DNA of 61,896 bases from a virus (Duplodnaviria > Caudoviricetes): the IMG/VR virus record IMGVR_UViG_3300030103_002748, positions 1-61,896 of that record, one strand, 5' to 3'. The position numbers were made by a program, and so were the translations under genes. A model generated the notes under the pieces. The model had not been told where the DNA came from. It saw only the letters and a list, made by a program, of their open reading frames with translations, and did no database searches. Each line of letters begins with the position of its first letter. Position 1 is the stretch's first letter. Below, piece by piece: positions 1 through 61,896 of the stretch.

Positions 1-49
1 TGCTTTCTCTGTTTACCCCTGATTTAAACTGTAATTTTCTAACTGCCAT
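1..49 (-). CDS. 5' end (truncated) of a tail tubular/stabilisation protein, allele of 53425..55350
   Basis: Manual translation MAVRKLQFKSGVNRES vs MPLTKLQFRPGVNRET (10/16 identical); purine-rich RBS just upstream; not in ORF track. Confidence 0.75.
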   Translation of the reverse strand, partial: MAVRKLQFKSGVNRES

Positions 50-56
50 CTCGCCC

Positions 57-482
57 TCACTCTGCGTATTCACCGCTAGAGATCATGTCAGTCAACTCCA
101 AAGCACGCCCACCCACTTGTTTAGCCCACTTAGAATCAAGGAACTCAGTAGCTGCTACCTTATATTCTCCTTCTTCCATAGCAGTCAAAGCGCGTTTGAA
201 AAGTCGCAAACGTGTTGCACCTAGGTTAAAAGATATATCAACCATAGCGTCTCTACGAACATCGTCAAGATCGCTAAACCAAGAATATTCGGCAGCAAGC
301 TCTTTCATAACCCGCTCTATATCATTCTGTAGCAGGTAATCAACCTCGTCATCAGACAGCCCTATGCCGCCTTCTTGGTCTATGTTACGACCAACACCTA
401 CAGTAACTTTTCCTTCAGAGCATTCATAAGCATGTGTCTCCACACCCTCATGTCTCCTTAGCATTGCAATTAGTTTTTCCAT
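57..482 (-). CDS. Endolysin, phage lysozyme (GH24/T4-lysozyme-like)
   Basis: HEG...AY.C..G..T.GVGRN catalytic-region motif, FNLG, DSKWAKQVG.RA; paralog of 17871..18311. Confidence 0.9.
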   Translation of the reverse strand: MEKLIAMLRRHEGVETHAYECSEGKVTVGVGRNIDQEGGIGLSDDEVDYLLQNDIERVMKELAAEYSWFSDLDDVRRDAMVDISFNLGATRLRLFKRALTAMEEGEYKVAATEFLDSKWAKQVGGRALELTDMISSGEYAE

Positions 483-955
483 TACTGGCCTCTGTTATTG
501 CTGCTACCAAAAAAGAAAGCACTAATACCGCTAATAAGCCCACCAAGGTAGCCCAATATGATGTTGGCTAGAGCGTCATCTACTGCTTCAGCGCGAAAGG
601 TAACTAGGAATATATACGCCAGAAAGCCCATCAAGCTGATAATTGCAAATATCTTAGGTGTAGGGTCTTCACCAAAAATCTCTCTTGCCGCTTGTCTGTC
701 CTGAACTTCTACCTTGAAATTCTCAAGGTCTATCTTGCGCTCTTCCAAAGTTCTTGCAAACTCTAGCTCTGCCTCTTGTAATGCGCTGATGGAGTCTGGA
801 TGTTCTTCAATGTATTTTTCTAGCTTGGCAGGATCAGTGGTGTTGCTTACTCCAAGTTTATCTGCCACTAGCTTAACCGCCATACCGCCCATAGGCCCAC
901 CAATGGCTTTGCCCACGGTAGGTGCTAGTGTCGATAACAGTCCTTTTAACTTCAT
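482..955 (-). CDS. Putative holin-like membrane protein
   Basis: N-terminal APT...GGP.GG amphipathic segment, DRQAAR, two C-terminal TM helices ending FFFGSS; directly upstream of lysozyme. Confidence 0.65.
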   Translation of the reverse strand: MKLKGLLSTLAPTVGKAIGGPMGGMAVKLVADKLGVSNTTDPAKLEKYIEEHPDSISALQEAELEFARTLEERKIDLENFKVEVQDRQAAREIFGEDPTPKIFAIISLMGFLAYIFLVTFRAEAVDDALANIILGYLGGLISGISAFFFGSSNNRGQ

Positions 956-1857
956 ACTTCCACCATAAAAGTGCTTTTGGGCGGGTTTTCTACCCTGTCT
1001 CTTGGGTATGGGGCAATGCCCAAGTGATCAATTATTATGCCGAAGCTCTCTATCTTTTGAGCAACTTCGTTTATATTCTGTTTTGCGTAAGCTGCTGTGC
1101 CAACATTGTCAAACCACATGTTGAATCTGCCGTGGTTGTCAACGACCCGACCTTGTAACCAAATATGATCCCGATCACCAATGTCAGCATCAATATTAAT
1201 TTCCCAGTCCTCATCATTGCCAAGTAGCTGCTCGAATCCCATCCATTCTTCTTCACCGCTGTTGATTTCCCCGTCAGTAAAGTCCACATAGGTTTCACCC
1301 AGCTTAACATCTTCAAGCTCTCTGGCTTCGGGCGCATCCCACGCCCAAGAGTTTATTTCGGTATCGTATTTGTTAATCTCCACCTCAACAGGTGGCAAAT
1401 CAGCAAACAGATCAAGCTCTCCAAATACCGAACTCTCTCCTCCTTCTATCGCTGCTTTAAGATCAGTAAGCAGCTTTTCTACATCCGCATTGTTGTCTAG
1501 CTTGGCAGATGTATTTTCAAATACTGTGTCTAGCTTTGACTGTCTTGTTGGCTCTTGGCCCTCAGTCTGCGGTCCTTGCTTGACCTCTGTGTCAGCAGGA
1601 GTCTCTGCTGATCTAACCCTGACGTTTACATCTTCGCCTGAGACTTGAGCAAAGCTACCAACTAAATTTACTTCGCCGTTCTCAGTGCTTATGGTTACTG
1701 AGTTACCGTCTTCAGATACTGACCCTTTAACGGTCTGTCCTTCTGGTAGATCAAGCTCTTTTACTGCATCAGAAGATAAGGTAACCGTTAGACTTTGAGT
1801 GGTATCTACCTGCGCTGCGTTGTAATTCGCAATCGGGTTATCAGGCGATATGATCAT
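952..1857 (-). CDS. Acidic protein with FliK (flagellar hook-length control) C-terminal-like domain
   Basis: C-terminal WEINIDADIG..HIWLQGRVVDNHGRFNMWFDNVGTAAYAKQNINEVAQKIESFGIIIDHL resembles the Flg_hook fold pattern; N-terminal L..GQTVKGSV; by eye only. Confidence 0.55.
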   Translation of the reverse strand: MIISPDNPIANYNAAQVDTTQSLTVTLSSDAVKELDLPEGQTVKGSVSEDGNSVTISTENGEVNLVGSFAQVSGEDVNVRVRSAETPADTEVKQGPQTEGQEPTRQSKLDTVFENTSAKLDNNADVEKLLTDLKAAIEGGESSVFGELDLFADLPPVEVEINKYDTEINSWAWDAPEARELEDVKLGETYVDFTDGEINSGEEEWMGFEQLLGNDEDWEINIDADIGDRDHIWLQGRVVDNHGRFNMWFDNVGTAAYAKQNINEVAQKIESFGIIIDHLGIAPYPRDRVENPPKSTFMVEV

Positions 1858-1895
1858 CCATTACAGAGTCAACAAATAGATTCTCGTAAGAGCGT

Positions 1896-2132
1896 CTATG
1901 TTTCTGATGACTTTCCCTCAGTATCCTCCTCGACGATCTCGTCAATACTTTCGCATACATCGGGTACAGCTATGCCTGTAGTTACTTCAGTAGCCACACG
2001 GCCCACAGCACGGATGCCTTTATAGACACCAGAGCAGTACAAGTCTTTGTTAGCAATCATGTCCTCAGAGATGGTGCATCCAGACATTATGGATAAACTA
2101 ATCAGCACTGGGAAAATCAATTTCATCTTCAA
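1896..2132 (-). CDS. Small lipoprotein of the lysis cassette
   Basis: Signal peptide with lipobox-like IMSG-C; two further Cys conserved with paralog 18781..18996. Confidence 0.7.
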   Translation of the reverse strand: MKMKLIFPVLISLSIMSGCTISEDMIANKDLYCSGVYKGIRAVGRVATEVTTGIAVPDVCESIDEIVEEDTEGKSSET

Positions 2133-2868
2133 TCCTTTTTAACTCTCTCATTTCGCCTTTGGTTAAAGGAACAACCTTCTTAGCTTCTTGCTCCTGCTCT
2201 TCGAGAAACTCCTTCAGTCTTTCTTTGTATCCTTCCATCATGTGATCGGTTATTCGATCTCTTAGACCGCCTCTGTCAGCAGCCCTTACGTCTTTGCTTG
2301 GGTCTATATAGTCAGGACCGTTATTGCTGAAGTACAACATAGTCTGTGAGCTTGACGGTCCGTAGCACAAACGCGGTATTCTGGCGACCATATCACTTCC
2401 CTGAACACAGGATATCTGGTTGTCCAGCGTCATTGGCTTTTTAAATCCTTTGAAGAACACATTAGGCTTGCCAAAGGTAACCAGATTAATGTTGTCGTGC
2501 TTGCCGTTCAACATAGATGCAGACAGTTCTGCCAATGCTCCCCCAAGACTATGACCGCAAATTAACGTGCGCTTTTTCGGGTCTATATGTTCTTTTATCT
2601 TCTTCCATACAGACTTGTGAGCAAGGGCAAAACCACCGTGGCATAACCTTCCCGCATAGGGTACTGGTATGACGTTTAAGTCCGTCAGAATGTCCAGCTT
2701 CTGCTTTGTTCCTCTGAAGGCAATAACATCTACGGACTTACGCTTTACTACAAATGCTGTAGTTGATGTCCATTTGCTATTTATTTTTATAGCATCTTTG
2801 TTATTTACAGCATACGCCTTCATAGACCACGAACAGGCCATATTGAGAAGGACAGGATCAAGTTTCAT
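2098..2868 (-). CDS. Class 3 lipase (alpha/beta hydrolase)
   Basis: IAFRGT, CHGGF, GHSLGG nucleophile elbow, TFGKP, D.V.RIP, DH.M..Y. Confidence 0.9.
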   Translation of the reverse strand: MKLDPVLLNMACSWSMKAYAVNNKDAIKINSKWTSTTAFVVKRKSVDVIAFRGTKQKLDILTDLNVIPVPYAGRLCHGGFALAHKSVWKKIKEHIDPKKRTLICGHSLGGALAELSASMLNGKHDNINLVTFGKPNVFFKGFKKPMTLDNQISCVQGSDMVARIPRLCYGPSSSQTMLYFSNNGPDYIDPSKDVRAADRGGLRDRITDHMMEGYKERLKEFLEEQEQEAKKVVPLTKGEMRELKRIEDEIDFPSAD

Positions 2869-3092
2869 TTATCAGCCTTGTTTTCTAGTCGCTTGAAAAT
2901 CGCACCCAGCATCTCTTTGATCTCGCGGATGTCTTCACGGTAATCGTCTTTGGCAACATACTTCTCAGCGATCTGCTTCATTTCTAAATCTACACGATCC
3001 AGCAAAGTGTAGATGCGGTTGTACGCCCACGCTGCCAGAAAGCCGCCGATCAGGATAATTACATCAAAGACTATTTGACCAGTAAGCTCCAT
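2865..3092 (-). CDS. Small single-TM protein with coiled coil (lysis-associated)
   Basis: N-terminal TM helix followed by YVAKDDY...I..IF..LE.KADK. Confidence 0.6.
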   Translation of the reverse strand: MELTGQIVFDVIILIGGFLAAWAYNRIYTLLDRVDLEMKQIAEKYVAKDDYREDIREIKEMLGAIFKRLENKADK

Positions 3093-3352
3093 TACTCAGA
3101 CTCTTCTCTTGGGTCTACCCAATCTTCTACTGCCGTGAACGTGCCGTCAGACGCACATGTATATTTACACCCGTACCAATCTTCAGGCTCAGTAACTCCC
3201 TCGATAAGAGTGGCGTTGCCGCTGTTGAGATCACCAATGATAAACTCAGCAGGATCGCCAACAGTAATTGTGTCGCTTCCCATCGTGACTGACTTGTCAT
3301 CAGCAAAGAGATACCGTGATGTGTTCGTTGCATTGTCTACAATAGTCTTCAT
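3092..3352 (-). CDS. Fibre-associated small protein (allele A)
   Basis: Directly downstream of scaffold trio; 82/86 aa identical to 58577..58837. Confidence 0.8.
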   Translation of the reverse strand: MKTIVDNATNTSRYLFADDKSVTMGSDTITVGDPAEFIIGDLNSGNATLIEGVTEPEDWYGCKYTCASDGTFTAVEDWVDPREESE

Positions 3353-3355
3353 GTC

Positions 3356-4810
3356 TTAACCTTTAAGTAAAAGTGTTGTTGCAGCCAAAGCCTTACCAGC
3401 GGTCACACTGGTAGAACCTGTTCCGAGACTGCCATCTGTTTGAACGTAATATGTAGTTCCGGGTGTTAAAGTCAAACCCAGACTTGCGTTAGTAATCACC
3501 CCGCCCTCGACCACCACTTCGCCTGATGCAGAGTTGTTGATAGCTTGGTTGGTGATGCCTACGAAGTCGGCGAAGTTGGTTGATCCGACCTGAAGAACCA
3601 CTGAAGTCCCGTAATTGCTATTACCACCGTCTTCAAAGCCAATTACTACTTTGTCTGAATTGGTGTCATAAGCAGCAGTGCATCTTTCTGACGTTGCTGC
3701 GGCAAACACAACAGGCGTTTCGTAAGTAATCGACGTACCACTCACAGTGCCAACGGCATAGGTTCCGTAATTGCTGTTGCCTTTATCCATATACACCACA
3801 ACCGCTTTCCCTGCGTCTGGGTCAAACGTCATTCCAACTTCTTGTATGCCGCCACTCTCAAATTCCACTTCAGAGCCATAGGATATAGACGTACCGCTGA
3901 CCGTCCCAACGAGTGACTTACCTTTTTCTGAATCAGCAGTATCTTCATACGCAATAACCACTTTGTTATTAGTGGTGTCAAATGCACACACTGAATTGGC
4001 AGTGCCAGCGGCATGAAATACAACAGCAGTTCCAAATGAAATAGAAGTGCCACTCACAGTGCCAACTATAGCTGTACCGTGACTTGAATTTCCTACATCA
4101 GTATATACCACTACTGTTTTATTGCTTGATGTGTCAAAGCAAGACGATTGTTGATATAAACTTGATTGAGCAGACTCAAAAACAACTGGAGACCCGTATG
4201 AAATAGAAGTGCCACTTACAGTGCCTACTGCGGCTGTACCATAGTTGCTATTGGATGTGTCTTTGTAAAACGTAACTACTTTATTTGAATTGCTGTCAAA
4301 TGTCGTGCTGGTATCTGATGCAACATTTGTGGTGATGGTCGCCTCAGAACCGAAACTAATACTGGTTCCGCTTACAGTGCCAACTATTGAGTTAGTTTTA
4401 TTGCTGTCTCCGACATCTTTATAAACAATGACTATTTTATTTGCATTGCTATCGTAAGTACCAGAGATTTGATACGTTGTGGCAGCATTAAATGTCACAG
4501 CCGTACCAAAGCTAATGCTTGTACCGCTCACAGTGCCTACGATAGCTTTACCGTGATTTGAATCTCCAGAATCAGTATAGACAATGACTACCTTGTTATT
4601 TGAGGAGTCATAAATAGGCAGAATGTGATAAGACTGTGCGGTTTCAAAAACTACTTCTGAACCTGTGCTTTCTGCTTGTCCAGAAATTTCAGACACCGTA
4701 CCGTTGGCATTCAGAACTACAGCCTGTCCTGTAGCCAGATTACCACTAGCCGTGGCCGTTATAACTTTTGCGCCAGCACCCGCTGGAAGTAGATCGCTTA
4801 GATTGCTCAT
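3356..4810 (-). CDS. Receptor-binding/fibre-tip protein, slot 3, scaffold plus one 7-repeat domain
   Basis: MSNLSDLLPAG N-terminus, seven ~52-aa [F/Y]DxxxxKVV...GTVSGTSIS repeats, C-terminus TTLLLKG. Confidence 0.75.
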   Translation of the reverse strand: MSNLSDLLPAGAGAKVITATASGNLATGQAVVLNANGTVSEISGQAESTGSEVVFETAQSYHILPIYDSSNNKVVIVYTDSGDSNHGKAIVGTVSGTSISFGTAVTFNAATTYQISGTYDSNANKIVIVYKDVGDSNKTNSIVGTVSGTSISFGSEATITTNVASDTSTTFDSNSNKVVTFYKDTSNSNYGTAAVGTVSGTSISYGSPVVFESAQSSLYQQSSCFDTSSNKTVVVYTDVGNSSHGTAIVGTVSGTSISFGTAVVFHAAGTANSVCAFDTTNNKVVIAYEDTADSEKGKSLVGTVSGTSISYGSEVEFESGGIQEVGMTFDPDAGKAVVVYMDKGNSNYGTYAVGTVSGTSITYETPVVFAAATSERCTAAYDTNSDKVVIGFEDGGNSNYGTSVVLQVGSTNFADFVGITNQAINNSASGEVVVEGGVITNASLGLTLTPGTTYYVQTDGSLGTGSTSVTAGKALAATTLLLKG

Positions 4811-6285
4811 GTGCTGTAATCCAAATTAATGCTTGTGGCTGACATTGCTTTGCCAGCTTCTACGCTAGGGCTTGCCGCGGATGTCGCTAATGTCCCGTCC
4901 CTTTGAACATAATAGGTTGATCCCGGAGTCAAACTGCTCAGACCGTTGGAGGCAATCCCGCCTTTCATCGTTACGTTTCCGCTTGCTGCGTTAGATATAG
5001 CTTCGTCCGCTATACCTAGGAAGTTAGTGGCAGTGAGGTTTGTACTATCGTAGGCAACTTGGAATACAACCGCTGTTCCATAGTAGGAGTTATCAACATC
5101 TCGGTAGGTAATAACCACTTTATTCAAATTAGAATCAAATGTTGACCCAATAAATTGAACGTGAGCAGACTCATACACAACTTCTGACCCAAACGAAATA
5201 CTGGTTCCTGATACAGTACCAACAATAAGAGTTCCATAAAGAGAGTTACCAGCATCTCTGTACGAAAAAACAACTTTATCTGCGGTGGAGTCAAATGTAG
5301 ATGAGATATAATTTGCACCAGCAGCTTGAATCTGCACAGAGCTACCGAACGATATAGAGGTTCCACTCACTGTTCCTACAACTGCGTATGAATAGCCATT
5401 CGCTGACTGATTATAACCAATAGCAACTTTGTTATTACTGGAATCAAATGTTGCTGTTATGTAAGTAGTAAGCGCATTAGTATCAAATGTTCCTGCTGAG
5501 CCGTAAGATATGCTCGTACCACTAACAGTGCCTACGATTGCTTTACCTTGGTTATCGCCAGAGTCTTTATAAGCAATAACAACTTTATTTGAGTTTGAAT
5601 CAAATGTTGCAGCCTGATCTGAAGTGTTTTCACTGTTGTATGCGGCTTTAGTCCCGAACGATATGCTTGTCCCGCTTACCGTCCCTACTATGGCAGTGCC
5701 ATAACCACCAGACGCACCGGACGCATCTCTAAAAACAACAACTACCTTATTGTTAGATGAATCAAATACGGTTGATATGTAGTCAGCACTTGACGCCCTA
5801 AACACCACTTCACTACCAAACGAGATTGATGTTCCACTAACTGTGCCTACTATTGCCGTGCCGTGAGATGAGTTCCCTCCATCTGTATAAGCAATCACAA
5901 CTTTGTTATTAGATGAGTCGAATGTCGCAGATGTATACGATGTAGAACCAGAATTAAAAACAACAGGCGTACCAAATGTTATTGAATTATCACTTGCTGG
6001 CGTTCCTACTACTGCGGTTCCGTAGCTTGAGTTGCTATTATCACAATACGCTATAACAACTTTGTTGTTAGACGAGTCAAATGTTGGTGAACTATATGGA
6101 GCACTTCCAGACTCAAATACTGTTGGTGAACCAATACCTTGATCGGCAGATTCTCCTGCCACCTGTGTAACCGTACCATTAGCGTTCAAGATGACAGGTT
6201 TACCCTGTGCAATTGTTCCACTCGCAGTAAATTCAAGCTGCTTACTCGCCGCACCTGCTGGTAAAAGATCGCTTAGATTTGTCAT
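4807..6285 (-). CDS. Receptor-binding/fibre-tip protein, slot 2, scaffold plus one 7-repeat domain
   Basis: MTNLSDLLPAGAASKQL N-terminus, seven FDSxxxKV repeats, C-terminus SINLDYST; ATGA overlaps with both neighbours. Confidence 0.75.
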   Translation of the reverse strand: MTNLSDLLPAGAASKQLEFTASGTIAQGKPVILNANGTVTQVAGESADQGIGSPTVFESGSAPYSSPTFDSSNNKVVIAYCDNSNSSYGTAVVGTPASDNSITFGTPVVFNSGSTSYTSATFDSSNNKVVIAYTDGGNSSHGTAIVGTVSGTSISFGSEVVFRASSADYISTVFDSSNNKVVVVFRDASGASGGYGTAIVGTVSGTSISFGTKAAYNSENTSDQAATFDSNSNKVVIAYKDSGDNQGKAIVGTVSGTSISYGSAGTFDTNALTTYITATFDSSNNKVAIGYNQSANGYSYAVVGTVSGTSISFGSSVQIQAAGANYISSTFDSTADKVVFSYRDAGNSLYGTLIVGTVSGTSISFGSEVVYESAHVQFIGSTFDSNLNKVVITYRDVDNSYYGTAVVFQVAYDSTNLTATNFLGIADEAISNAASGNVTMKGGIASNGLSSLTPGSTYYVQRDGTLATSAASPSVEAGKAMSATSINLDYST

Positions 6286-6647
6286 GCGAAATCCATCATG
6301 TTGATTGTTGTGGCAGTGACAGCCTGTCCTATCTTCACCGCTGGGCTTGTGCTGGTAGTAGAGACACTGCCATCGCTTTGGGCGTAGTAGTCAGAGCCAA
6401 TAGTCAACGAGGACTGCTTGCTGTTGATGCTGCCCTTGACGTTGATCTTGCCTGTTGCAGTATCTGATATAGCCGCATCTGCTAAACCTATAAACCTAGC
6501 TAAATTACCGTTGGCAGAAGTTATTTTTTTAACCTTGCCGTTAGTTTCTAAACTGACAGGATCACCAGCAGAAATCGCTCCATCTGCCGTGAAACTAACA
6601 ATGTTCTGCCCACCACCGCTGGGCAGCAGATCAGAAAGATTACTCAT
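6282..6647 (-). CDS. Fibre-tip protein, slot 1, scaffold only
   Basis: MSNLSDLLPSG N-terminus; same scaffold as slots 2 and 3 with no insert; pattern resembles DUF2190/capsid-cement-type small beta domains. Confidence 0.7.
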   Translation of the reverse strand: MSNLSDLLPSGGGQNIVSFTADGAISAGDPVSLETNGKVKKITSANGNLARFIGLADAAISDTATGKINVKGSINSKQSSLTIGSDYYAQSDGSVSTTSTSPAVKIGQAVTATTINMMDFA

Positions 6648-7781
6648 TTACACGCTCCAGCCTATAGTGCCGTTGATGTACACCAACGTAATCTCAGCGA
6701 AGTTCTTGTCGAACGTAAGATCACTTGCGCTTGACGCTATGTTGCTTGAGTTGCGACCTACGGTAAAACTTGTAGTTTCTGCTGCACCCGTACCGTCTTT
6801 AATAGTGACGTAATCACCTGCACTGGGACTAGCGGGTAGCGTAATAGTAATCGACCCCGCACTCGCTACAATAAATTCACCGACAGTAGCAGTATAGTTA
6901 CCGCTTTTCAGTTGTGGCGCAGAATACTCAGTAACTGTAGCGAAAGCTAGTTTGCCGGAACCATTAGATGCTTTTACAAACTGACCTGTACTACCTACAG
7001 CATCAGGTAGTTCTAAAGAATAGGTCGCTCCTGCGGAGTGTGGTGGGCCTTTTAGCGTTACACCGTGACTGTTGCTTTCACAGTTGAAGCGAATAGCACC
7101 TGCGTTGGTGTTACCGTAAAGCTCGGTAAAACCTGTGCCGTTTGGAAAGAGCTGTATGTTGCCATTAGTATTTGTAGATTTGACCGCATTTGCGTCTATC
7201 TGAATATTATCTACATCAAGCTCATTAGCGACTATCTGACCTGCGGAGCCATATATAACAGCCTTTGAATTAACTACGGTATCAGCAGCCGATCCATCTA
7301 CTAGGTTTAGTTCTGATGCACTAGATGTGACATCTGTAAGCTGAGTAACAGCGACTTGAGGACTCGCTAGAACCACCGCTGCGCCAGAACCTGCCCCGTC
7401 TAAATACAATAAGGCTGTTTTACCGTTGGCTATAGTGACGTTTGCACCAGAGCCCTGACTAACATTTATTGATTGACTGCCCGAAGTGGCATTTTCAATA
7501 AACATCACGCGAGAAACGGTGTTGGGCGCTATTGTTAACGTCCTGGTTGCCGTTAAGCTAACACCCGAGGTTACTTTAAAATAAAGTGCCCTGGCCGGAT
7601 CGGCAGCGCCATCCGCGACTGTCGTCGTGACATCGGCATCTGAACTAAAAGACGCCTCTGTTTTAAAGCCAAGGGCCTCACCTATAAGCTCTAAATTGGT
7701 ATTTGTGCTGGTTCCCCAGGTTCCGCTTTCGTCACCTGTGGCGATTTCTTTTAATCGTAAGTTGTTTACATAAGTTGCCAT
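6648..7781 (-). CDS. Proximal tail fibre/adaptor protein
   Basis: N-terminal L.L...ATGDESGTWG..TNTNL tail-attachment-type motif; C-terminal TITLPASP..GD.V...D...LVY....GW domain seen in phage fibres. Confidence 0.75.
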   Translation of the reverse strand: MATYVNNLRLKEIATGDESGTWGTSTNTNLELIGEALGFKTEASFSSDADVTTTVADGAADPARALYFKVTSGVSLTATRTLTIAPNTVSRVMFIENATSGSQSINVSQGSGANVTIANGKTALLYLDGAGSGAAVVLASPQVAVTQLTDVTSSASELNLVDGSAADTVVNSKAVIYGSAGQIVANELDVDNIQIDANAVKSTNTNGNIQLFPNGTGFTELYGNTNAGAIRFNCESNSHGVTLKGPPHSAGATYSLELPDAVGSTGQFVKASNGSGKLAFATVTEYSAPQLKSGNYTATVGEFIVASAGSITITLPASPSAGDYVTIKDGTGAAETTSFTVGRNSSNIASSASDLTFDKNFAEITLVYINGTIGWSV

Positions 7782-7793
7782 TGGTACACCTCA

Positions 7794-8699
7794 TTAAGCG
7801 GCTATTTCTACCCAACCTGGGGTTTGTGACGGAGTTTCCTCTGTCCAATTTGGATTTTGATCTGGACCTATTTCACCCCAAACTATGACTCTTCCAACTT
7901 GCCCAGTAGCAAACAACCCCGTAACAGGAGAGGTTGCGTCGGCTTCAATTGTAACTGCTCCTACGCTACCGGTGGCTTGAAGACCTGTTACAGGTACGTC
8001 AAGTTGTAAATCAATCGTTACCGACCCAACCGAGCCGGTTACTGTTAAGCCCGTAACAGCGGTTGACGCTCCTGCGTTAACACTAACACTGCCCACGCTG
8101 CCCGCAGCAGATATGCCCGTGACTGGCGTTAAAACACCGGCATCAACTGTTACACTACCCACAAAGCCGGTTGCGGACAACCCAAGAGAGGCTCCCCAAC
8201 CGCCTTCGCCCCAACTACCTCGGCCCCAACCGTCAAAACGAACGGTTTTATTAAATATGACCTGGGCTGTCGATCCTGTGGCACTAACACCAGTCACACT
8301 AACGTTAGATAAACCTGTGACCGTTACCGATCCAACACCACCAGTGGCACCTATACCAGTCGGGAATACGCCAGTTCCCTCTAAAGTGCCTGCACTGCCA
8401 ACGCCACCAGTAGCGGACAATCCTGTGACTGACAGATTGTTGTTGGAAACCGTTGAAAGTGTTCCAACGCCGCCCGTAGCGGCTATGCCGGTTACTGCAA
8501 CATCTCCCGCAGCTACAGCAGTTACGCTACCAACGCCACCAGTGGCCGATAAGCCGGTTTCCGGGACATTGGCCTCTGCGATAACTGTTACACTACCAAC
8601 AGCACCTGTGGCTAAGGGTAGAGTTTGAGCAGAGCCATATCCGCCTGATCCCCAAGCAACATAACCCCAACCAGCTATAGGGACGGTAACGTCGGCCAT
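7794..8699 (-). CDS. Virion protein of 22-aa Gly/Thr/Val repeats
   Basis: 11 repeats of ATGxVGSVTV-like units at 22-aa period in two blocks, each preceded by a GWG..WG motif. Confidence 0.7.
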   Translation of the reverse strand: MADVTVPIAGWGYVAWGSGGYGSAQTLPLATGAVGSVTVIAEANVPETGLSATGGVGSVTAVAAGDVAVTGIAATGGVGTLSTVSNNNLSVTGLSATGGVGSAGTLEGTGVFPTGIGATGGVGSVTVTGLSNVSVTGVSATGSTAQVIFNKTVRFDGWGRGSWGEGGWGASLGLSATGFVGSVTVDAGVLTPVTGISAAGSVGSVSVNAGASTAVTGLTVTGSVGSVTIDLQLDVPVTGLQATGSVGAVTIEADATSPVTGLFATGQVGRVIVWGEIGPDQNPNWTEETPSQTPGWVEIAA

Positions 8700-8703
8700 G
8701 TCA

Positions 8704-9141
8704 CTATGCGATTCTTATAATCGCACTGCTCGCATCTGCTGTTGGAAAAACAATTGTAAAATCACCCGCCGTGGACGTTTTATCTCCACCAAAATCCAAC
8801 ACCACTACGGATGGATCACCAGATGCGCTGTCATTGTAAATAAGTGCGCCCCTGGCAGTAATCGTTGCAGAGCTAAAAGTTAAATCACTAAAATCAGTAA
8901 GTGCCGTTGTACTGCTTGTAGTGGGAGTAACGTTTGTTAAAGCTGATCCACCTGCACTGTATCCGGTCCCACTTACCTCATTACTAGTCGTATAAGCGGT
9001 GGTAGCTGCCGTAAAACTGGCACTGTTGGTATACAAAGCAAGTTTGAAAGTATTGCCCGAGCTGTTAGTAAAATTATGTGTAGCCGTCATCAATTCTTTT
9101 TTGAAGCTGGTACACATGAAGTTGCCTGAAAAAGCCATCAT
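8704..9141 (-). CDS. Conserved phage structural (tail/fibre) protein
   Basis: FKLALYT...NEVSGTGY.AGG..L...DF.D....A.GALIYN...V.DFG motif; location in tail region. Confidence 0.7.
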   Translation of the reverse strand: MMAFSGNFMCTSFKKELMTATHNFTNSSGNTFKLALYTNSASFTAATTAYTTSNEVSGTGYSAGGSALTNVTPTTSSTTALTDFSDLTFSSATITARGALIYNDSASGDPSVVVLDFGGDKTSTAGDFTIVFPTADASSAIIRIA

Positions 9142-11047: not shown

Positions 11048-11410
11048 TTATTTCTTCTTGTTAATGGGTCCACCGCGCATTCTCTTCATGACGCCCGCCT
11101 TCTTAGAGACCTTTCCGCCCATGTTTCTCTTCATAACGCCCGCCTTCTTAGAGACCTTTCCGCCCATGTTCTTTTTAACGGGTTTTTCACCTCTAGCAGC
11201 CATAATACGATCTCTTTGAGTAATTTTACCGTCACCACTCATGTCTTTCAGGCCACCGCCGTCTTTCATTTTCTTGGGTTTCATGGGACCACCTACATCT
11301 CCACCGCCCCTCATCTTTTTAGGTTTTTTGGTAGCTCCATTGCCTAAATTAACCACAGACCTTGAAGAGCCGCCCGCACCTGCTTCTTTCTTTCTAGGAC
11401 TCATTGCCAT
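11048..11410 (-). CDS. Highly basic Lys/Gly/Met-rich small protein
   Basis: Very K-rich; several MxxGG/xMGG motifs; internal 15-aa duplication. Confidence 0.7.
   Translation of the reverse strand: MAMSPRKKEAGAGGSSRSVVNLGNGATKKPKKMRGGGDVGGPMKPKKMKDGGGLKDMSGDGKITQRDRIMAARGEKPVKKNMGGKVSKKAGVMKRNMGGKVSKKAGVMKRMRGGPINKKK
11084..11173. repeat. 45-bp tandem duplication encoding (K/R)NMGGKVSKKAGVMK twice
   Basis: acgcccgccttcttagagacctttccgcccatgtt occurs twice at 45-nt spacing. Confidence 0.9.
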
Positions 11411-17476: not shown

Positions 17477-17878
17477 TTATATCAGATGTTTTCTATTAGC
17501 TAGGTGTGCTTCCTTTATTGCAAACTTACTTTGGCCAAAATATTCAACGGCCATGTGGTTTTTAATCAACTCCTCGCAAAGCCACTTGTCGTGACGTTTG
17601 AAATCACCCATATAACGACCGTATTTACCGCCTTTGTCCTTGTACGTTTTTAAAGTTACCACCGTGCCTACCGGCATGAAGTCCTCTACAAACTTCTTGG
17701 CCATGAGTCCGTATTTCTTTTCCTCTTTATCTCGGGTTCTGCTCTCAGGCGCATCAATTCCATAGAGGCGAATACGACCACGCTTGCCACCCACGTAAGT
17801 ATCAAAGCCAAGGTCCACCAAAACATCAACCGTGTCTCCATCTACAATTTTAACGACGGTTGCGGAATACTCATACAT
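17477..17878 (-). CDS. Staphylococcal nuclease (thermonuclease)-like protein
   Basis: V.KIVDGDT, RIRLYGIDAPE, KYGR motifs. Confidence 0.88.
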   Translation of the reverse strand: MYEYSATVVKIVDGDTVDVLVDLGFDTYVGGKRGRIRLYGIDAPESRTRDKEEKKYGLMAKKFVEDFMPVGTVVTLKTYKDKGGKYGRYMGDFKRHDKWLCEELIKNHMAVEYFGQSKFAIKEAHLANRKHLI

Positions 17879-34551: not shown

Positions 34552-34729
34552 TAAGTACAGATTGAGCGGTGTCCAGGGCTCTAGAAAGGGTGTGCGGGGT
34601 TTTCTTGAGGTCTGCTACATGCTCCAAGGTTTCTAAATCGTCCCGCAAGTCCACGACGTATTCCTGAGCCATGCGCTGAACCATCTTCAGTTGTTCGGTT
34701 GTGAGTATTAAGTTGTGGTTGTGTGCCAT
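34502..34729 (-). CDS. Hypothetical protein
   Basis: Start reassigned to ATG 34729 (MAHNHN) with RBS GGAGG. Confidence 0.6.
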   Translation of the reverse strand: MAHNHNLILTTEQLKMVQRMAQEYVVDLRDDLETLEHVADLKKTPHTLSRALDTAQSVLNECKQTLEDPSNEGHI

Positions 34730-58576: not shown

Positions 58577-58837
58577 CTATTCAGACTCTTCTCTTGGGTC
58601 TACCCAACCCTCTACTGCCGTGAACGTGCCGTCACTCGCACAGGTGTACTTGCACCCGTACCAGTCGGTTGGCTCGCTAACTCCAGTGATAAGAGTGGCG
58701 TTGCCGCTGTTGAGGTCACCAATGATAAACTCAGCAGGATCGCCCACAGTAATTGTGTCGCTTCCCATCGTGACTGACTTGTCATCAGCAAAGAGGTATC
58801 TGGATGTGTTCGTTGCATTGTCTACGATTGTCTTCAT
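58577..58837 (-). CDS. Fibre-associated small protein (allele B)
   Basis: 82/86 aa identical to 3092..3352. Confidence 0.8.
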   Translation of the reverse strand: MKTIVDNATNTSRYLFADDKSVTMGSDTITVGDPAEFIIGDLNSGNATLITGVSEPTDWYGCKYTCASDGTFTAVEGWVDPREESE

Positions 58838-58840
58838 GTC

Positions 58841-61432
58841 TTACCCTTTCAGTAGAAGTGTCGTGTTTGCTATTGCCTTGCCAGCCGTTACGCTGGAAGA
58901 CGTTGTGGAAAGTGTGCCATCGTCTTGGACGTAGTAGGTGCTGCCGATTGTGAAGTTAGGCACACCGCTGGATAACGTGCCTACGATGCCTGTGCCATAG
59001 TTTGAATTACCATTATCTTTGAACGCTATGACAATTTTATTGTTGTCAGTATCTTTAGTTATAGCAATCTCTCCGCCACTGGTAGAGGTAGAGTTAAAGA
59101 CAGCAGCATCACCAAACGTAATGGTGTCGCCATCAACCGTCCCTATCTTGGTTTTTCCTTTATTTGAATCATCGGTGTCGCTGTAACCTATGATAATTTT
59201 ATTTGTAGTGGAGTCATAAAACGCTGGTGTACCGTGAAAACCCACATTGGTGCTATTCCAAGTTACCTCTGTTCCAACGCTTATTGATGTGCCGCTGACT
59301 GTACCTATGATTGCTTTCCCAATGTTGGAGTTATCCGCATCGCTAAAAAATATTACCGATTTGTTTGCATTAGCGTCATAAGCCACAGCAGTTCTAAAGG
59401 CATTTGCTGCAACTCCCGTGGTGAATGATCCAACACTCATGCTTGTGCCTGATATTGTTACAACACAAGCGTCCCCACGATTACTGTTGGAATTATTTGC
59501 AAAGAACACAACGTGCTTTTGAGCGGTAGAATCGTAGGCGATTGCTATATATATTGCCGTATCGCTAGAAAGTGCAGATGCTCCACCAAAGCTGATACTT
59601 GTTCCTGACACTGTACCCACATTAGCAGTAAGTACATCAGAATTACCTCCATCGCTGTAAACAAACAAGGTCTTTGATGCGTTAGTATCGTATGATGCCT
59701 CAAGATACGCAGATGAAGCAGACTCTAACACTACCTCTGTACCGAAAGAGATACTTGTTCCTGACACAGTTCCCACTCTGGCCGTGCCGTATGAACTGTT
59801 CCCTACATCTCTGTATCCAATGACTACTTTCCCCGCAGAAGCATCAAAAACTGCGGTCACATAGTCTGTGCTGGCACTATTAAATTCTACAGGACTACCA
59901 TAACTAATCGACGTACCAGACACAGTGCCTACGATAGCTTTCCCTTTGTTTGAGTCACCGTAATCTGCGTACGCTATTACAATCTTGTCGTTTGCTGTGT
60001 CGTAAACAATTGCCGGATATCTCGAATTACCCGTATTATAAACCGCCTCACTTCCGTAACTCGCTGTCGTTATTGGTGACAACAACGACCCGTTAGTAAT
60101 CACCCCGCCCTCGACAACCACTTCGCCTGATGCAGAGTTGTTGATAGCTTGGTTGGTTATGCCTACGAAGTCAGAAGAGTTTGTGGATGCGCCAGCTAAC
60201 TGAAGCACATATGCTTTGCCTCGATTATTTGTAGAATCACTTAGAGCAATAACTGTTCTTCCTGCATTGGTGTCAAAAGCAGAACCGCCAAAATTATTGT
60301 TGTAGTTCGTAATTGCTACAGGAGTTGCATAGGATATGCTGTTACCCGCAGTAGGTGTCCCTACCACATAATAGCCATAGTCACTATTATTTTGATCTCG
60401 ATATTGAATTACAACTTTGTTTGCTACGGAGTCAAAAACTATTGAGTGAACGTCTACAATATTACTAGAAAATACGACACCAGTACCAAAAGATATGCTG
60501 GTTCCAGACACTTCACCTACAACTGCTACACCCCGTCTACTATTGTCGTAATCCTGATAAGCGACAACTATTTTGTTAAGATTGCTGTCAAATGTTGCTA
60601 CAATGTCTTCAGCGGTATCGCTTGCAGGAGAGAAAGCCTCACCTGACCCAAAGCTGATGCTTGAGCCGGACACTGTTCCGACTTTTGCCCGCCCTCTTGT
60701 GTTGTTATCATTATAAACTACGACAAATTTATCGTTCGTAGTATCGTAAAAAACAGCCATTGGGTCTGAAACAGAATTACTTTCAAAAACCTCTTCTGGA
60801 TTGGTTCTAGTGACCGAAGTGCCACTAACCGTTAGAAGTCTTGCTGCGCCTCTGTTGCTGTTCCCGCCATCTGCATAAATTATCATATGCTTGGCAGCAT
60901 CAGGACTGTAGGCAACATTAACGTACAATGATTGATTGCCCTCGACCTCTAAGGCAGAGCCGAAAGAAATACTGGTTCCTGACACAGTACCAACGATTGC
61001 TTTTGCTGGGCCGTTACCCTCATCATAAGACTGATAAGCGATTAATACCTTGTCCTCACCTGTATCATAGGAAGCGTCTACATGATTAGTGCCTGAACTC
61101 TGAAAAACCACCGCTGTGCCAAACGAGATTGAGTTACCTGATACCGTACCAACGCGAGCGGTTCCATAATTACTATTACCGTTATCCCTATATGCAACTA
61201 TTACTTTGTTGCTGTCAGGATCAAAAACAACCGCCGGGTACTCAGTTTGATTTGATGCTCCATATGTAACAGCACTGCCGATGTTTTCGGAATGTGCAAC
61301 CTCAGCGACCGCTTTAACAGTACCGTCACTCTGCAAGATCACGGTTTGTCCTGTAGCCAGATTACCACTGGCCGTGGCCGTTATGACTTTTGCGCCGCCA
61401 CCTGCTGGCAGTAAATCGCTTAGATTGCTCAT
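58841..61432 (-). CDS. Receptor-binding/fibre-tip protein, slot 3, scaffold plus two 7-repeat domains
   Basis: Same termini as 3356..4810; 2 x 7 repeats separated by scaffold segment DFVGITNQAINNSASGEVVVEGGVITN. Confidence 0.75.
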   Translation of the reverse strand: MSNLSDLLPAGGGAKVITATASGNLATGQTVILQSDGTVKAVAEVAHSENIGSAVTYGASNQTEYPAVVFDPDSNKVIVAYRDNGNSNYGTARVGTVSGNSISFGTAVVFQSSGTNHVDASYDTGEDKVLIAYQSYDEGNGPAKAIVGTVSGTSISFGSALEVEGNQSLYVNVAYSPDAAKHMIIYADGGNSNRGAARLLTVSGTSVTRTNPEEVFESNSVSDPMAVFYDTTNDKFVVVYNDNNTRGRAKVGTVSGSSISFGSGEAFSPASDTAEDIVATFDSNLNKIVVAYQDYDNSRRGVAVVGEVSGTSISFGTGVVFSSNIVDVHSIVFDSVANKVVIQYRDQNNSDYGYYVVGTPTAGNSISYATPVAITNYNNNFGGSAFDTNAGRTVIALSDSTNNRGKAYVLQLAGASTNSSDFVGITNQAINNSASGEVVVEGGVITNGSLLSPITTASYGSEAVYNTGNSRYPAIVYDTANDKIVIAYADYGDSNKGKAIVGTVSGTSISYGSPVEFNSASTDYVTAVFDASAGKVVIGYRDVGNSSYGTARVGTVSGTSISFGTEVVLESASSAYLEASYDTNASKTLFVYSDGGNSDVLTANVGTVSGTSISFGGASALSSDTAIYIAIAYDSTAQKHVVFFANNSNSNRGDACVVTISGTSMSVGSFTTGVAANAFRTAVAYDANANKSVIFFSDADNSNIGKAIIGTVSGTSISVGTEVTWNSTNVGFHGTPAFYDSTTNKIIIGYSDTDDSNKGKTKIGTVDGDTITFGDAAVFNSTSTSGGEIAITKDTDNNKIVIAFKDNGNSNYGTGIVGTLSSGVPNFTIGSTYYVQDDGTLSTTSSSVTAGKAIANTTLLLKG

Positions 61433-61791
61433 GTGCTGTAATCCAGATTGATGCTTGTGGCTGACATTGCTTTACCAGCGGTCACTGAAGAAGATGCGGT
61501 GCTAAGTGTGCCGTCATCTTGGACGTAGTAGGTCGCTCCTGGCGTTAGACTGCTCAGACCATTAGCTGCAATCCCGCCCTTCATAGTAACCTTGCCGCTT
61601 GCTGCGTTGGATATGGCTGCGTCTGCTATGCCTAAAAACCTACTGACGTTAGAGTTCGCTGAGGTTATTTTTTTAACTTTTCCATTGGTTTCTAAACTTA
61701 CCGTGTCGCCTTGCGCTATCGCCCCATCAGCAGTAAAACTTAGCTGCTTACTGGCCGCACCCGCTGGTAAAAGATCGCTTAGATTTGTCAT
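61429..61791 (-). CDS. Fibre-tip protein, slot 2, scaffold only (allele B)
   Basis: Same termini as 4807..6285 but with no repeat insert. Confidence 0.75.
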   Translation of the reverse strand: MTNLSDLLPAGAASKQLSFTADGAIAQGDTVSLETNGKVKKITSANSNVSRFLGIADAAISNAASGKVTMKGGIAANGLSSLTPGATYYVQDDGTLSTASSSVTAGKAMSATSINLDYST

Positions 61792-61895
61792 GTCAAATCC
61801 ATCATGTTAATTGTTGTGGCAGTGACAGCCTGGCCTATCTTCACCGCTGGGCTTGTGCTGGTAGTAGAGACACTGCCATCGCTTTGGACGTAATA
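61788..61895 (-). CDS. 3' end (truncated) of slot 1 fibre-tip gene (allele B)
   Basis: Manual translation YYVQSDGSVSTTSTSPAVKIGQAVTATTINMMDLT*, nearly identical to the C-terminus of 6282..6647. Confidence 0.85.
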   Translation of the reverse strand, partial: YYVQSDGSVSTTSTSPAVKIGQAVTATTINMMDLT

Positions 61896-61896
61896 G

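What the first reader, a model, noticed from the sequence alone, without database searches (positions are those of the whole stretch)
3092..7781. Three-slot modular receptor-binding system: one ~120-aa scaffold carrying 0, 1 or 2 plug-in seven-repeat domains
Seen: after the proximal fibre gene (6648..7781) come three ATGA-coupled paralogs starting M(S/T)NLSDLLP, then an 86-aa gene. The same arrangement recurs at 58577..61896. Each slot has its own fixed termini in both copies (slot 1 ...INMMD; slot 2 AASKQL...SINLDYST; slot 3 GAKVITATASG...TTLLLKG). Lengths of 120-121, 484-492 and 863 aa equal the scaffold plus 0, 1 or 2 blocks of seven ~52-aa repeats. Blocks enter at two fixed loops: after V.L...G.V and after GG.ITN. 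Allele A loads slots 1/2/3 as 0/1/1; allele B as ?/0/2. Inference: the scaffold resembles DUF2190/beta-tulip trimer domains and the inserts look like 7-bladed beta-propellers. The three chains may form a 1:1:1 heterotrimeric fibre tip, docked on the fibre by the shared N-terminal peptide, displaying a combinatorial set of binding heads. Phage fibre tips are typically homotrimers, so this would be an unusual host-range diversification architecture.
Basis: partly seen in the sequence, partly recalled or inferred. Interest (0 to 1): 0.85.

Follow-up and report, generated by a model that had tools for sequence, protein, structure and literature searches.

The report
Plug-and-socket modular phage fibre tips
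A marine phage ends its tail fibre in a socket that is predicted to take a ten-residue plug carried by three sister proteins. Each is a small scaffold whose loops hold whole propeller-shaped domains that are swapped in and out, probably to change which bacteria the phage can grip.

Summary
After the fibre gene (6648-7781) come three paralogs of 121, 492 and 484 aa, then an 86-aa gene; a second set sits at 58577-61896. Each paralog is a ~115-aa scaffold with 0, 1 or 2 inserts of seven ~52-aa repeats.

Folding shows the inserts are confident seven-bladed beta-propellers. The scaffold's first half resembles beta-tulip head-decoration domains.

New here:
- The fibre's conserved C-terminal domain is predicted to bind residues 1-10 of the paralogs, one plug per fibre subunit (score 0.81, best control 0.26).
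- In IMG/VR, 36 de-duplicated series run from a socket fibre to the 86-aa gene: 30 have three plug genes, 3 have two, 3 have one, none more.
- Slot-specific ends are conserved while the middles and inserts vary.
- Relatives use a third insertion loop and other insert types.

The 1:1:1 heterotrimer is neither shown nor excluded. I rate a shared heteromeric tip at about 0.45 and three competing homotrimers at 0.3. A serial chain is unlikely.

The second copy is probably a population variant at a wrapped contig end, not a second locus. The propeller-protein family is very large and unannotated. I found no description in print in five full-text searches.

The parts
6648..7781 (-). Tail fibre, 377 aa; the variable shaft ends in the conserved socket domain
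   Evidence: phrog_31104 at E 1.8e-53 and phrog_972 'tail fiber protein proximal subunit' at E 1.5e-9 on residues 291-371. tblastn hits fall on annotated tail fibres of Roseobacter and Pelagibacter phages.
6651..6914 (-). Socket domain: fibre residues 290-377, ending ...INGTIGWSV
   Evidence: Mean column identity is 70% over 14 fibres with otherwise different shafts. The predicted contacts with the plug are residues 335, 340-341, 348-349, 351, 353-362, 364 and 377. The domain co-occurs with plug genes.
6282..6647 (-). Slot 1, allele A: empty scaffold, 121 aa, tail ...INMMDFA
   Evidence: AF2 mean pLDDT 74.3. Beta-tulip match at Z 8.3. PF09956 at 23.3 bits against a cut-off of 24.
6618..6647 (-). 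Plug (leader), slot 1: MSNLSDLLPS. The same element lies at 6256-6285 (slot 2A), 4781-4810 (slot 3A), 61762-61791 (slot 2B) and 61403-61432 (slot 3B).
   Evidence: Residues 1-5, 7-8 and 10 are the only partner residues in confident contact with the fibre in the predicted complex. Coordinates.
4807..6285 (-). Slot 2, allele A: scaffold plus one propeller, 492 aa, tail ...SINLDYST
5026..6156 (-). Propeller insert of slot 2A (residues 44-420) at loop 1
   Evidence: Seven D..K anchors; boundaries
3356..4810 (-). Slot 3, allele A: scaffold plus one propeller, 484 aa, terminal-type tail ...TTLLLKG
   Evidence: AF2 mean pLDDT 85.6, pTM 0.79.
3569..4681 (-). Propeller insert of slot 3A (residues 44-414) at loop 1
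   Evidence: 10-residue block means of pLDDT are mostly 86-97 across residues ~50-410, with single blocks of 80 and 70. The best TM-scores are to the seven-bladed Photorhabdus lectins PLL2, PHL and PLL4, at 0.77-0.82 by target length.
3092..3352 (-). 86-aa protein that always follows the last, terminal-type module
   Evidence: Found after the last scaffold gene in all 36 complete series, and after fused single-gene fibres. No family in Pfam, PHROGs or the PDB. There is a weak language-model lead to tail fibre assembly proteins, score 0.83.
61794..61896 (-). Slot 1, allele B: the last 34 codons only, cut by the contig end
   Evidence: 94% identical to residues 87-120 of slot 1A. Sequence.
61429..61791 (-). 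Slot 2, allele B: empty scaffold, 120 aa, tail ...SINLDYST
   Evidence: Its middle (SLETNGKVKKITSAN...) is that of slot 1A.
58841..61432 (-). Slot 3, allele B: scaffold plus two propellers, 863 aa. Inserts at 60173-61303 (loop 1) and 58958-60085 (loop 2).
58577..58837 (-). 86-aa protein, allele B
   Evidence: 84% nucleotide identity to the copy-A region, 3093-3454.

Best explanation
This is a split, modular receptor-binding tip of a marine podophage tail fibre.

Shown or predicted here:
1. The fibre ends in a conserved ~90-aa socket domain.
2. Each of the three downstream proteins begins with the same ten-residue plug, M(S/T)NLSDLLP(S/A). The plug is predicted to lie between fibre subunits, one plug per subunit.
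3. After a short Gly-rich linker comes a ~100-aa scaffold whose first half has a beta-tulip-like fold. Three of its loops accept whole domains, here seven-bladed lectin-like beta-propellers.
4. The first ~27 and last ~40 residues stay slot-specific. The middle of the scaffold and its inserts are exchanged between phages and between slots, so the number and kind of heads vary from phage to phage.

Inferred:
- The three chains are tethered within a few residues of one trimeric socket. I infer that they pack together on a single fibre as a heteromeric tip, most simply one of each.
- On that reading an empty scaffold is kept because the position has to be filled.
- The 86-aa protein serves the last, terminal-type module, as an assembly factor or a cap.
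- The propellers bind host surface glycans.
For: - Anatomy is confirmed.
- Propeller: AF2 mean pLDDT 85.6, with the best-TM matches to seven-bladed lectins.
- Scaffold: PF09956 at 23.3 and 21.4 bits against a cut-off of 24. It matches the phi29 gp8.5 N base at Z 8.3, rmsd 1.6 over 54 residues, followed by other phage decoration proteins. BFVD gives 39 matches at E<=0.001, including DUF2190 proteins and long fibre-like proteins.
- Docking: three socket fragments plus three slot-1 chains scored ipSAE 0.81, against a best control of 0.26. That mark was reached by 58 of 80 solved complexes and 2 of 110 mismatched pairs. The three runs share at least 92% of their contacts and the partner's pLDDT is at least 87. 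Contacts fall on plug residues 1-5, 7-8 and 10 only, symmetrically on all three copies. This used my own alignments and a 3+3 design unlike the calibration.
- Co-occurrence: of 49 fibre ORFs, 32 have both the socket end and a plug gene next to it, and 12 have neither. The other 5 have the socket only. One of those is a start-codon artefact and four are a second fibre (L110-L113; four loci, at least two near-identical). None of the 12 fibres without the socket is followed by a plug gene.
- Number: of 101 de-duplicated socket-fibre rows, 36 reach the 86-aa gene. Of these, 30 have three plug genes, 3 have two and 3 have one. No row of the 101 has more than three.
- Slot orthology: slot 2 forms a clade (support 89), slot 3 and terminal modules form a clade (85), and together they are supported at 97.
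- Empty scaffolds: 27 intact sequences of 115-125 aa, 36-83% identical to slot 1A, with tails of all three slot types.
- Cassette exchange: the empty middle is shared by slot 1A and slot 2B. There are natural hybrids of a slot-2 N-terminus with a slot-1 or slot-3 tail (P0002, P0009; L126 and L104).
- Precedent: three consecutive virophage tail genes that co-purify as a 1:1:1 heterotrimer (PMC12724248, passages read).
Against: - Nothing here measures stoichiometry.
- The only complex job used three copies of one chain and passed, so a homotrimer is at least as compatible with that model.
- One-gene systems (L110, L113, L150) and two-gene systems (L104, L126, L217) exist. Fused fibres with one or two tandem scaffold modules in a single chain also exist. 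So the scaffold can work as a homo-oligomer.
- The plug also sits on non-scaffold Gly-rich or other tips (L160, L180, L191). One plug gene can serve a genome with two socket fibres (L110). This looks like a promiscuous adaptor system.
- Empty scaffolds are rare: 3 of the roughly 100 slot genes surveyed.
- The constancy of three may be inheritance rather than constraint.
- The phage beta-tulip decoration proteins matched are, from my recall, homotrimers.
- The scaffold model is only moderate (mean pLDDT 74, pTM 0.46), and Foldseek against the PDB gave no match at E<=0.001.
- Glycan binding by the propellers rests on fold likeness alone.
Confidence: 0.45

Rival explanations
1. Three separate homotrimeric tips. 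Each paralog trimerises on its own, and the three kinds compete for the same socket. A virion with several fibres then carries a random mix of tips.
For: - Identical plugs on all three chains, and a symmetric three-site socket that accepted three copies of one chain in the model.
- One-gene systems must be homo-oligomers.
- The plug also occurs on unrelated tips, and one tip gene can serve two socket fibres.
- L217 pairs a slot-1-like gene with a gene that carries the poly-Gly linker typical of single-gene tips.
- Phage receptor-binding proteins and beta-tulip decoration proteins are, as I recall, usually homotrimers.
Against: - Nothing would cap the number at three, yet none of the 101 rows exceeds three and 30 of 36 complete series have exactly three.
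- A homotrimer of an empty scaffold would be a blank tip that blocks a fibre. Yet empty scaffolds persist as intact, diverged ORFs in all three slot types.
- This model gives no reason for slot-specific ends to stay conserved while the middles move between slots.
Confidence: 0.3
2. Unordered mixing. The chains are monomeric until they dock and fill the three sockets of a fibre at random, giving statistical heteromers rather than a fixed 1:1:1 complex.
For: - The plugs are the same.
- The middle of the scaffold is exchangeable between slots, so any contact surface in that part may not tell the slots apart.
- Two-gene hybrids are viable.
Against: - Slot-specific N- and C-terminal segments are conserved across several lineages, which suggests each position is distinct.
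- Blank tips would arise by chance.
Confidence: 0.15
3. Serial chain. Homotrimers stack end to end, fibre then slot 1, slot 2, slot 3 and the 86-aa cap, as a split version of the fused fibres that carry two scaffold modules in tandem.
For: - Fused relatives do have two complete scaffold modules in one chain (L021, L029, L033).
- Modules followed by another module have an I-N/Q type tail, and last modules have an L/I-L/I-L/I-K/E-G type tail, whether fused or split.
- Gene order would match assembly order.
Against: - All three chains carry the plug that is predicted to fit the fibre socket, not a scaffold tail.
- In L082, L115 and L104, slot 1 continues into a ~260-aa Gly-rich domain with its own small downstream ORF. 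Yet slot 2 begins exactly as it does elsewhere, so slot 2 cannot depend on a free slot-1 tail.
- The 'C-C' architectures that I first read as tandem modules in split genes are a third insertion loop.
Confidence: 0.07

Closest known systems
Beta-tulip head-decoration (cement) proteins: phi29 gp8.5 N base, lambda gpD, P21 SHP, Pam3, YSD1 and HFTV1 decoration proteins; Pfam PF09956 Phage_cement_2 (formerly DUF2190)
   Same: Fold of scaffold residues 13-73 (Z 8.3 to 5.1). There is a near-threshold PF09956 match. The protein is small, with an N-terminal arm used for attachment.
   Different: It sits at a tail-fibre tip, not on the capsid. It attaches by a plug to a fibre domain. It serves as an insertion scaffold for 370-aa domains in three loops. 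It comes as three diverged paralogs. The Pfam cut-off is not reached.
Tripartite tail of virophage DSLV2 (PMC12724248; passages read)
   Same: Three consecutive paralogous tail genes. That paper reports co-purification as a 1:1:1 heterotrimer that binds host lipopolysaccharide.
   Different: Those proteins are described there as T4 gp37-tip-like needles of about 58 kDa in total. There is no beta-tulip scaffold, no inserted propellers, and no separate socket fibre. I did not compare the sequences.
Branched multi-tailspike phages with N-terminal anchor domains (CBA120, G7C, K1-5; recalled, not tested)
   Same: Several receptor-binding proteins per virion are attached through N-terminal adaptor elements. 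This gives a modular host range.
   Different: As I recall, each of those spikes is a homotrimer with its own distinct anchor and its own site. Here all three chains share one ten-residue plug and one socket.
Seven-bladed Photorhabdus lectins PLL2, PLL3, PLL4 and PHL
   Same: Best TM-scores for the insert (0.77-0.82 by target length); seven blades.
   Different: Sequence identity is 9-12%. The blade motif is different (FDS..NKVVI.Y.D..NS.YG.A.VGTVSGTSISFG). Sugar binding was not tested.
Tail fibre assembly proteins that follow fibre genes (lambda Tfa, T4 gp38; Caudo_TAP PF02413)
   Same: The position of the 86-aa gene directly after the last fibre module. There is a weak language-model likeness, 0.83.
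   Different: No Pfam hit for any of 24 homologues at E<=1. No PDB sequence match better than E 0.75.

Membership tests
PF09956 Phage_cement_2 (DUF2190) | Whole-protein score at or above Pfam's gathering cut-off (24 bits) | tested here: not met
   23.3 bits (slot 1A) and 21.4 bits (slot 2B); E 8.8e-5 and 3.4e-4. One 115-aa homologue, P0027, carries a precomputed PF09956 hit.
Beta-tulip decoration proteins | Beta-tulip fold | tested here: met
   Residues 13-73 of the AF2 model (mean pLDDT 74) match 6qyy_A at Z 8.3, rmsd 1.6, 54 residues aligned. Nine further phage head proteins score Z 5.2-8.2. Z about 8 is near the tool's stated background, so the match is moderate.
Beta-tulip decoration proteins | Trimer bound at capsid three-fold sites | not tested
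   The gene context is tail fibre, not head. Oligomer state was not measured. Three copies were accepted on the socket in the model.
Seven-bladed beta-propeller lectins (PLL/PHL type) | Seven four-stranded blades closing a ring | tested here: met
   Seven repeats. 292 of 484 residues have pLDDT of 90 or more. TM 0.77-0.82 by target length to 6rgg_B, 5mxg_A and 8q82_A.
Seven-bladed beta-propeller lectins (PLL/PHL type) | Sugar-binding pockets between blades | not testable with these tools
   No residue-level comparison was possible; identity is 9-12%.
Tail fibre assembly protein (Caudo_TAP) | Match to PF02413 or PF28596 | tested here: not met
   0 of 24 homologues matched at E<=1. The atlas cosine scores of 0.83 and 0.82 are leads only.
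Heterotrimeric three-gene tail fibre (DSLV2 type) | Three adjacent paralogous genes | tested here: met
   30 of 36 complete series.
Heterotrimeric three-gene tail fibre (DSLV2 type) | 1:1:1 complex, favoured over homotrimers | not tested
The natural allele-A trio (1097 aa) exceeds the 1000-residue limit.
Tail fibre proximal-subunit-like domain (phrog_972 / phrog_8859) | Profile match of the fibre's C-terminal domain | tested here: met
   E 1.5e-9 for both, on residues 284-377.

The most novel reading that the evidence does not exclude
A homotrimeric fibre is capped by an obligate, ordered 1:1:1 heterotrimer of three beta-tulip paralogs. The three are held together by one shared socket. Each is an independent slot that can be loaded with 0-2 (in relatives up to 3) plug-in binding domains. 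A single fibre would then display a combinatorial, asymmetric set of heads, and empty scaffolds would be structural fillers.
Probability: 0.35. Interest if true: 0.85.

Novelty: new variant of a known kind. Interest (0 to 1): 0.72.

Why it matters
- The propeller-bearing proteins belong to a very large, unannotated family: 7,723 of the 8,000 candidates scored had E<=1e-5. The socket domain occurs in 264 stretches of IMG/VR.
- The nearest cultured phages infect Roseobacter and Pelagibacter, which are major ocean bacteria.
- The locus shows a compact way to vary host recognition. It uses a universal ten-residue plug and socket, a tiny scaffold that tolerates whole-domain insertions in three loops, and conserved slot ends that could serve as recombination arms.
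- If the tip is a true heterotrimer, it would be a clear departure from the homotrimer rule for phage receptor-binding proteins. It would also be a natural design for multi-specific fibres.
- Even if the tips are homotrimers, the plug and socket pair is a testable, portable adaptor.

Tried and rejected
1. **Serial chain.** I favoured a serial chain of homotrimers after finding tandem modules in fused fibres. I dropped it to 0.07 after three results: the Gly-rich slot-1 extensions, the plug-socket model, and the finding that 'C-C' architectures are a third insertion loop rather than tandem modules.

2. **The 86-aa protein.** It has no Pfam or PHROG family. The PDB profile search gave nothing better than E 0.75. 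The atlas gave only a sub-0.9 lead.

3. **Propeller proteins against family libraries.** Pfam gave only sub-threshold chance-like hits such as Agenet and DehI. PHROGs gave nothing for 484 and 863 aa, and two weak hits for 492 aa.

4. **Foldseek of the scaffold against the PDB.** No match at E<=0.001. The beta-tulip reading rests on VIA-align and BFVD.

5. **One locus or two?**
   - Relatives show the order fibre, slots, 86-aa gene, then optionally the 276-, 645- and 167-aa genes and optionally the holin-to-lysozyme genes, then the 641-aa gene.
   - Window bases 1-49 match 55302-55350, the start of the 641-aa gene, at 38 of 49 positions.
   - The right end stops inside a 93%-identical slot-1 stretch.
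   - So the contig looks like a ~55.3-kb unit with the variable island written once at each end.
   - Laying four runs on bases 1-9000 showed arm A and the core at similar contig depth, for example 11.1 against 11.9 in X1. That fits either a rare variant B or both arms in one genome.
   - I could not lay reads on arm B because the cap is one call. This is unresolved.

6. **Joints between paralogous repeats.** The Logan contigs show such joints only within 3376-6494. They may be real recombinants, relatives, or repeat artefacts, so I do not use them as evidence.

7. **The M+C tree.** It has 71 columns, was built with the quick method, and has many open forks. Modules without a detected M segment were left out: 136 modules gave 91 rows.

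8. **Literature.** I ran these full-text searches:
   - 'heterotrimer' + 'tail fiber' + 'bacteriophage' + 'receptor-binding protein': 13 papers, 11 listed
   - 'beta-tulip' + 'tail': 16 papers, 14 listed
   - 'beta-propeller' + 'tail fiber' + 'marine' + 'podovirus': 8 papers
   - 'CRP-901' / 'CRP-902': 3 papers
   - 'DUF2190': 4 papers

   I saw listings only, except for passages of PMC12724248, PMC13730344 and PMC10149686. PMC13419713 held no text on the term. None of what I saw describes this system. I did not consult supplements, and subscription journals are not covered.

Full report
**What the window is.** The window is a whole IMG/VR virus record of 61,896 bases, classed as linear, with a CheckV completeness estimate of 100%. 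Nearly all its genes lie on the minus strand. They include terminase, portal, major head protein, DNA polymerase, helicases and primase. The fibre's nearest cultured relatives are fibres of Roseobacter phages CRP-901/902 and of HTVC023P-type and other Pelagibacter phages. This is a marine podophage-like genome.

**The observation.**
Slot 1/2 and slot 2/3 overlap by ATGA in both copies.
- The five proteins align as one scaffold of 110-121 residues. A 371-377-aa block sits after residue 43. In the 863-aa protein a second block of 376 aa sits after GGVITNGS.
- Each block holds seven repeats, spaced 51-54 residues apart.
- The slot-specific termini are real.

**The folds.**
- *Slot 3A* (alignment of 23 sequences) gave mean pLDDT 85.6 and pTM 0.79. 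The insert's 10-residue blocks are mostly 86-97 (two dip to 80 and 70). The scaffold part is at 58-76 and residues 1-13 are disordered.
- Foldseek against the PDB returns only propellers for slot 3A. The best TM-scores by target length (0.77-0.82) go to the seven-bladed Photorhabdus lectins. Six-bladed sialidases, YncE and WD40 proteins score lower.
- *Slot 1A* alone (27 sequences) gave mean pLDDT 74.3.
- Foldseek found nothing at E<=0.001 for slot 1A in the PDB. The exhaustive aligner did place residues 13-73 on the phi29 head-fibre base (Z 8.3, rmsd 1.6, 54 residues). Next came a run of phage decoration proteins, with herpesvirus triplex proteins lower down.
- BFVD gave 39 matches at E<=0.001 for slot 1A. 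They include DUF2190 proteins and many long fibre-like proteins.
- Pfam PF09956 scores 23.3 and 21.4 bits against a cut-off of 24.

**Relatives.** I fetched loci with four queries:

| Query | Loci returned |
|---|---|
| Slot 1A | 28 |
| The 645-aa neighbour | 39 |
| The 86-aa protein | 78 |
| The fibre's C-terminal domain | 264 matching stretches, best 80 kept |

I annotated the loci with small HMMs of the plug, three scaffold segments and one blade.

- Of 116 fibres ending in ...(S/T/A)(I/V)GW(S/T)(V/I), 101 remain after removing identical series.
- Of these 101, 36 are cut by a contig end. Another 25 have no tagged gene after them, and 4 are a second fibre followed by another gene.
- The remaining 36 run through to the 86-aa gene. 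Thirty of them have three plug-bearing genes, three have two and three have one. No row of the 101 has more than three.
- Across at least six lineages, each slot keeps its own tail and its own residues 10-16. Examples of tail sets are MMDLT / LDYST / LLLKG, KDYTG / LEYQS / LNGDS, LVDPT / NLVNT / LLLTG and IRDLT / LEFNS / LNGAS.
- A tree of the M and C scaffold segments recovers a slot-2 clade and a slot-3/terminal clade.
- Loads vary freely. In the 30 trios, slot 1 ranges from 121 to 903 aa, slot 2 from 119 to 887 aa and slot 3 from 373 to 876 aa.

- *A third insertion point.* It lies inside the C-terminal segment and carries a different ~48-aa repeat, FNTDGTKMFVVG...YSLSTGFDVS.
- *Other insert and extension types.* Some loop-1 inserts are not this propeller. 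Some slot-1 genes continue into a Gly-rich ~260-aa domain with its own small downstream ORF.
- *Fused fibres.* In more distant phages the same scaffold, with propeller, is the C-terminal part of one long fibre. It occurs singly or as two complete modules in tandem, and the 86-aa homologue always follows.
- *Tail types.* The last module, fused or split, always has the hydrophobic L/I-L/I-L/I-K/E-G type of tail.

**The plug and the socket.**
- The fibre's last ~90 residues are 70% identical on average across fibres whose shafts differ in length from 261 to 951 aa.
- The socket end and a downstream plug gene go together: 32 fibre ORFs have both and 12 have neither. The 5 apparent exceptions are one start-codon artefact and four instances of a second fibre (L110-L113, at least two near-identical).
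- The job scored 0.81, against 0.26 for the best of three controls. That mark was reached by 58 of 80 solved complexes and 2 of 110 mismatched pairs. The runs agree in at least 92% of their contacts and the partner's pLDDT is at least 87.
- The confident contacts are plug residues 1-5, 7-8 and 10. They touch fibre residues 335, 340-341, 348-349, 351, 353-362, 364 and 377. The pattern is the same for all three copies, and each plug touches two neighbouring fibre subunits.
- The tool warns that this is support, not proof. It also warns that my alignments and the 3+3 design differ from its calibration.
- Those plug positions are the same in slots 1, 2 and 3 apart from S/T at position 2 and S/A at position 10. 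All three chains should therefore fit the same site.
- The plug also heads proteins with no scaffold at all (L160, L180, L191). It behaves as a general adaptor.

**How the three chains assemble.** This is the open point, and I could not run the hetero-versus-homo comparison.

For a shared, heteromeric tip:
- three predicted sites and three chains;
- the cap at three genes;
- translational coupling;
- slot identity kept for a long time while the middle of the scaffold moves between slots (slot 2B has slot 1A's empty middle);
- intact, diverged empty scaffolds in all three slot types, which would be blank tips if they trimerised alone;
- a linker of only a few residues between plug and scaffold, which forces the three scaffolds on one fibre into contact;
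- a published precedent in a virophage.

Against it:
- one- and two-gene systems;
- fused fibres that must be homo-oligomers;
- the promiscuity of the plug;
- the rarity of empty scaffolds;
- the possibility that 'three' is simply inherited.

The two-gene cases L126 and L104 carry a hybrid with a slot-2 start and a slot-3 tail. That is what one unequal crossover would give. It fits a tolerant system better than a rigid one.

My odds are:

| Arrangement | Odds |
|---|---|
| Heteromeric tip on one fibre (0.35 for a strict, ordered 1:1:1) | 0.45 |
| Separate competing homotrimers | 0.30 |
| Random filling of the sockets | 0.15 |
| Serial chain | 0.07 |

**The second copy.**
- Relatives have the order fibre, slots, 86-aa gene, then optionally the 276-645-167-aa block and optionally the holin-to-lysozyme block, then the 641-aa structural gene.
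- In this contig the left arm has the second block and ends in the first 16 codons of a 641-like gene. Those bases match the contig's own 641-aa gene at 38 of 49 positions.
- The right arm has the first block and ends inside slot 1, at 93% identity to 6224-6390.
- The simplest reading is a ~55.3-kb circular or permuted genome whose variable island was assembled twice, once for each of two co-occurring variants. On that reading 'allele' is the right word.
- The same four runs, from one study and two samples, hold both arms. The contig depths do not decide between variants and a true duplication.

**Function.** Lectin-like propellers at a fibre tip most likely bind host surface glycans. This rests on fold and position only. 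The 86-aa protein has no detectable family. Its fixed place after the terminal module, and a weak likeness to tail fibre assembly proteins, suggest a chaperone or a cap.

**Novelty.** Modular and multiple receptor-binding proteins are well known, and beta-tulip domains and propellers are known folds. What is new is the combination:
- a ten-residue universal plug with a conserved socket;
- a beta-tulip-like scaffold at a fibre tip that takes whole domains in three loops;
- three long-lived paralogous slots.

I found no description of this in five full-text searches. The limits of those searches are given under Tried and rejected.

Noticed in passing
window 1-49 and 55302-55350; 6224-6390 and 61730-61896: Both contig ends stop inside stretches homologous to internal sequence: 38 of 49 bases at the left end, and 93% over 167 bases at the right. 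The contig looks like a ~55.3-kb unit with its variable island assembled once at each end in two versions. One version lacks the 276-645-167-aa genes and the other lacks the holin-to-lysozyme genes.
   Followed up: partly
window 57-955 and 17871-18784: The 157-aa membrane protein and the lysozyme at the left end have a paralogous pair in the core genome (157 aa at 18311-18784, 146 aa at 17871-18311). A variant without the left-arm lysis genes could therefore still lyse its host.
   Followed up: partly
L012, L089, L114 and L128 slot genes (e.g. L012:10816-13038): A third insertion loop in the scaffold carries about five ~48-aa repeats (FNTDGTKMFVVG...YSLSTGFDVS). This is probably a second, smaller propeller type. 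I did not fold it.
   Followed up: partly
L160:4859-5725, L180:4274-5254, L191:2737-3276: The plug, followed by a poly-Gly linker, heads proteins without any scaffold: two Gly-rich tips of 288 and 326 aa, and a 179-aa ORF whose leader lies four codons in (about 175 aa from that leader). The plug is therefore portable.
   Followed up: partly
L082:5528-5940, L115:2482-2903, L104:7446-7738: Slot-1 genes that end in a Gly-rich domain are each followed by a small ORF of about 90-140 aa, not related to the 86-aa protein by eye. This may be a dedicated assembly factor.
   Followed up: no
window 7794-8699: A 301-aa protein made of Gly/Val/Thr-rich ~15-aa repeats (...TGLSATGGVGSVTV...) sits directly upstream of the fibre. 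It is conserved in that position in relatives (tagged g301) and has no family hit.
   Followed up: no
window 57730-58560 and 55844-57781: A 276-aa Asn/Thr-rich protein with an N-terminal hydrophobic segment, and a 645-aa protein with a poly-Gln tract, form an optional block with a 167-aa coiled-coil-like protein. The block lies between the tip cassette and the lysis genes in many relatives. Function unknown.
   Followed up: no
window 11048-11410: A 120-aa Lys/Gly-rich protein with an exact internal duplication (NMGGKVSKKAGVMKR twice).
   Followed up: no
window 3376-6494 (table 5): In the Logan contigs of four marine runs, every listed joint (skips and back-steps between paralogous repeats) falls inside the tip cassette. 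None falls in the flanking 1-3300 or 6500-9000. These may be population recombinants, related phages or repeat artefacts.
   Followed up: no
L010 (Lentibacter phage vB_LenP_ICBM2, record 34452-35999): A cultured cobavirus has a 515-aa hypothetical protein with the same kind of propeller repeat (31% identity over 170 residues). It lies among genes annotated as tail assembly chaperones.
   Followed up: no
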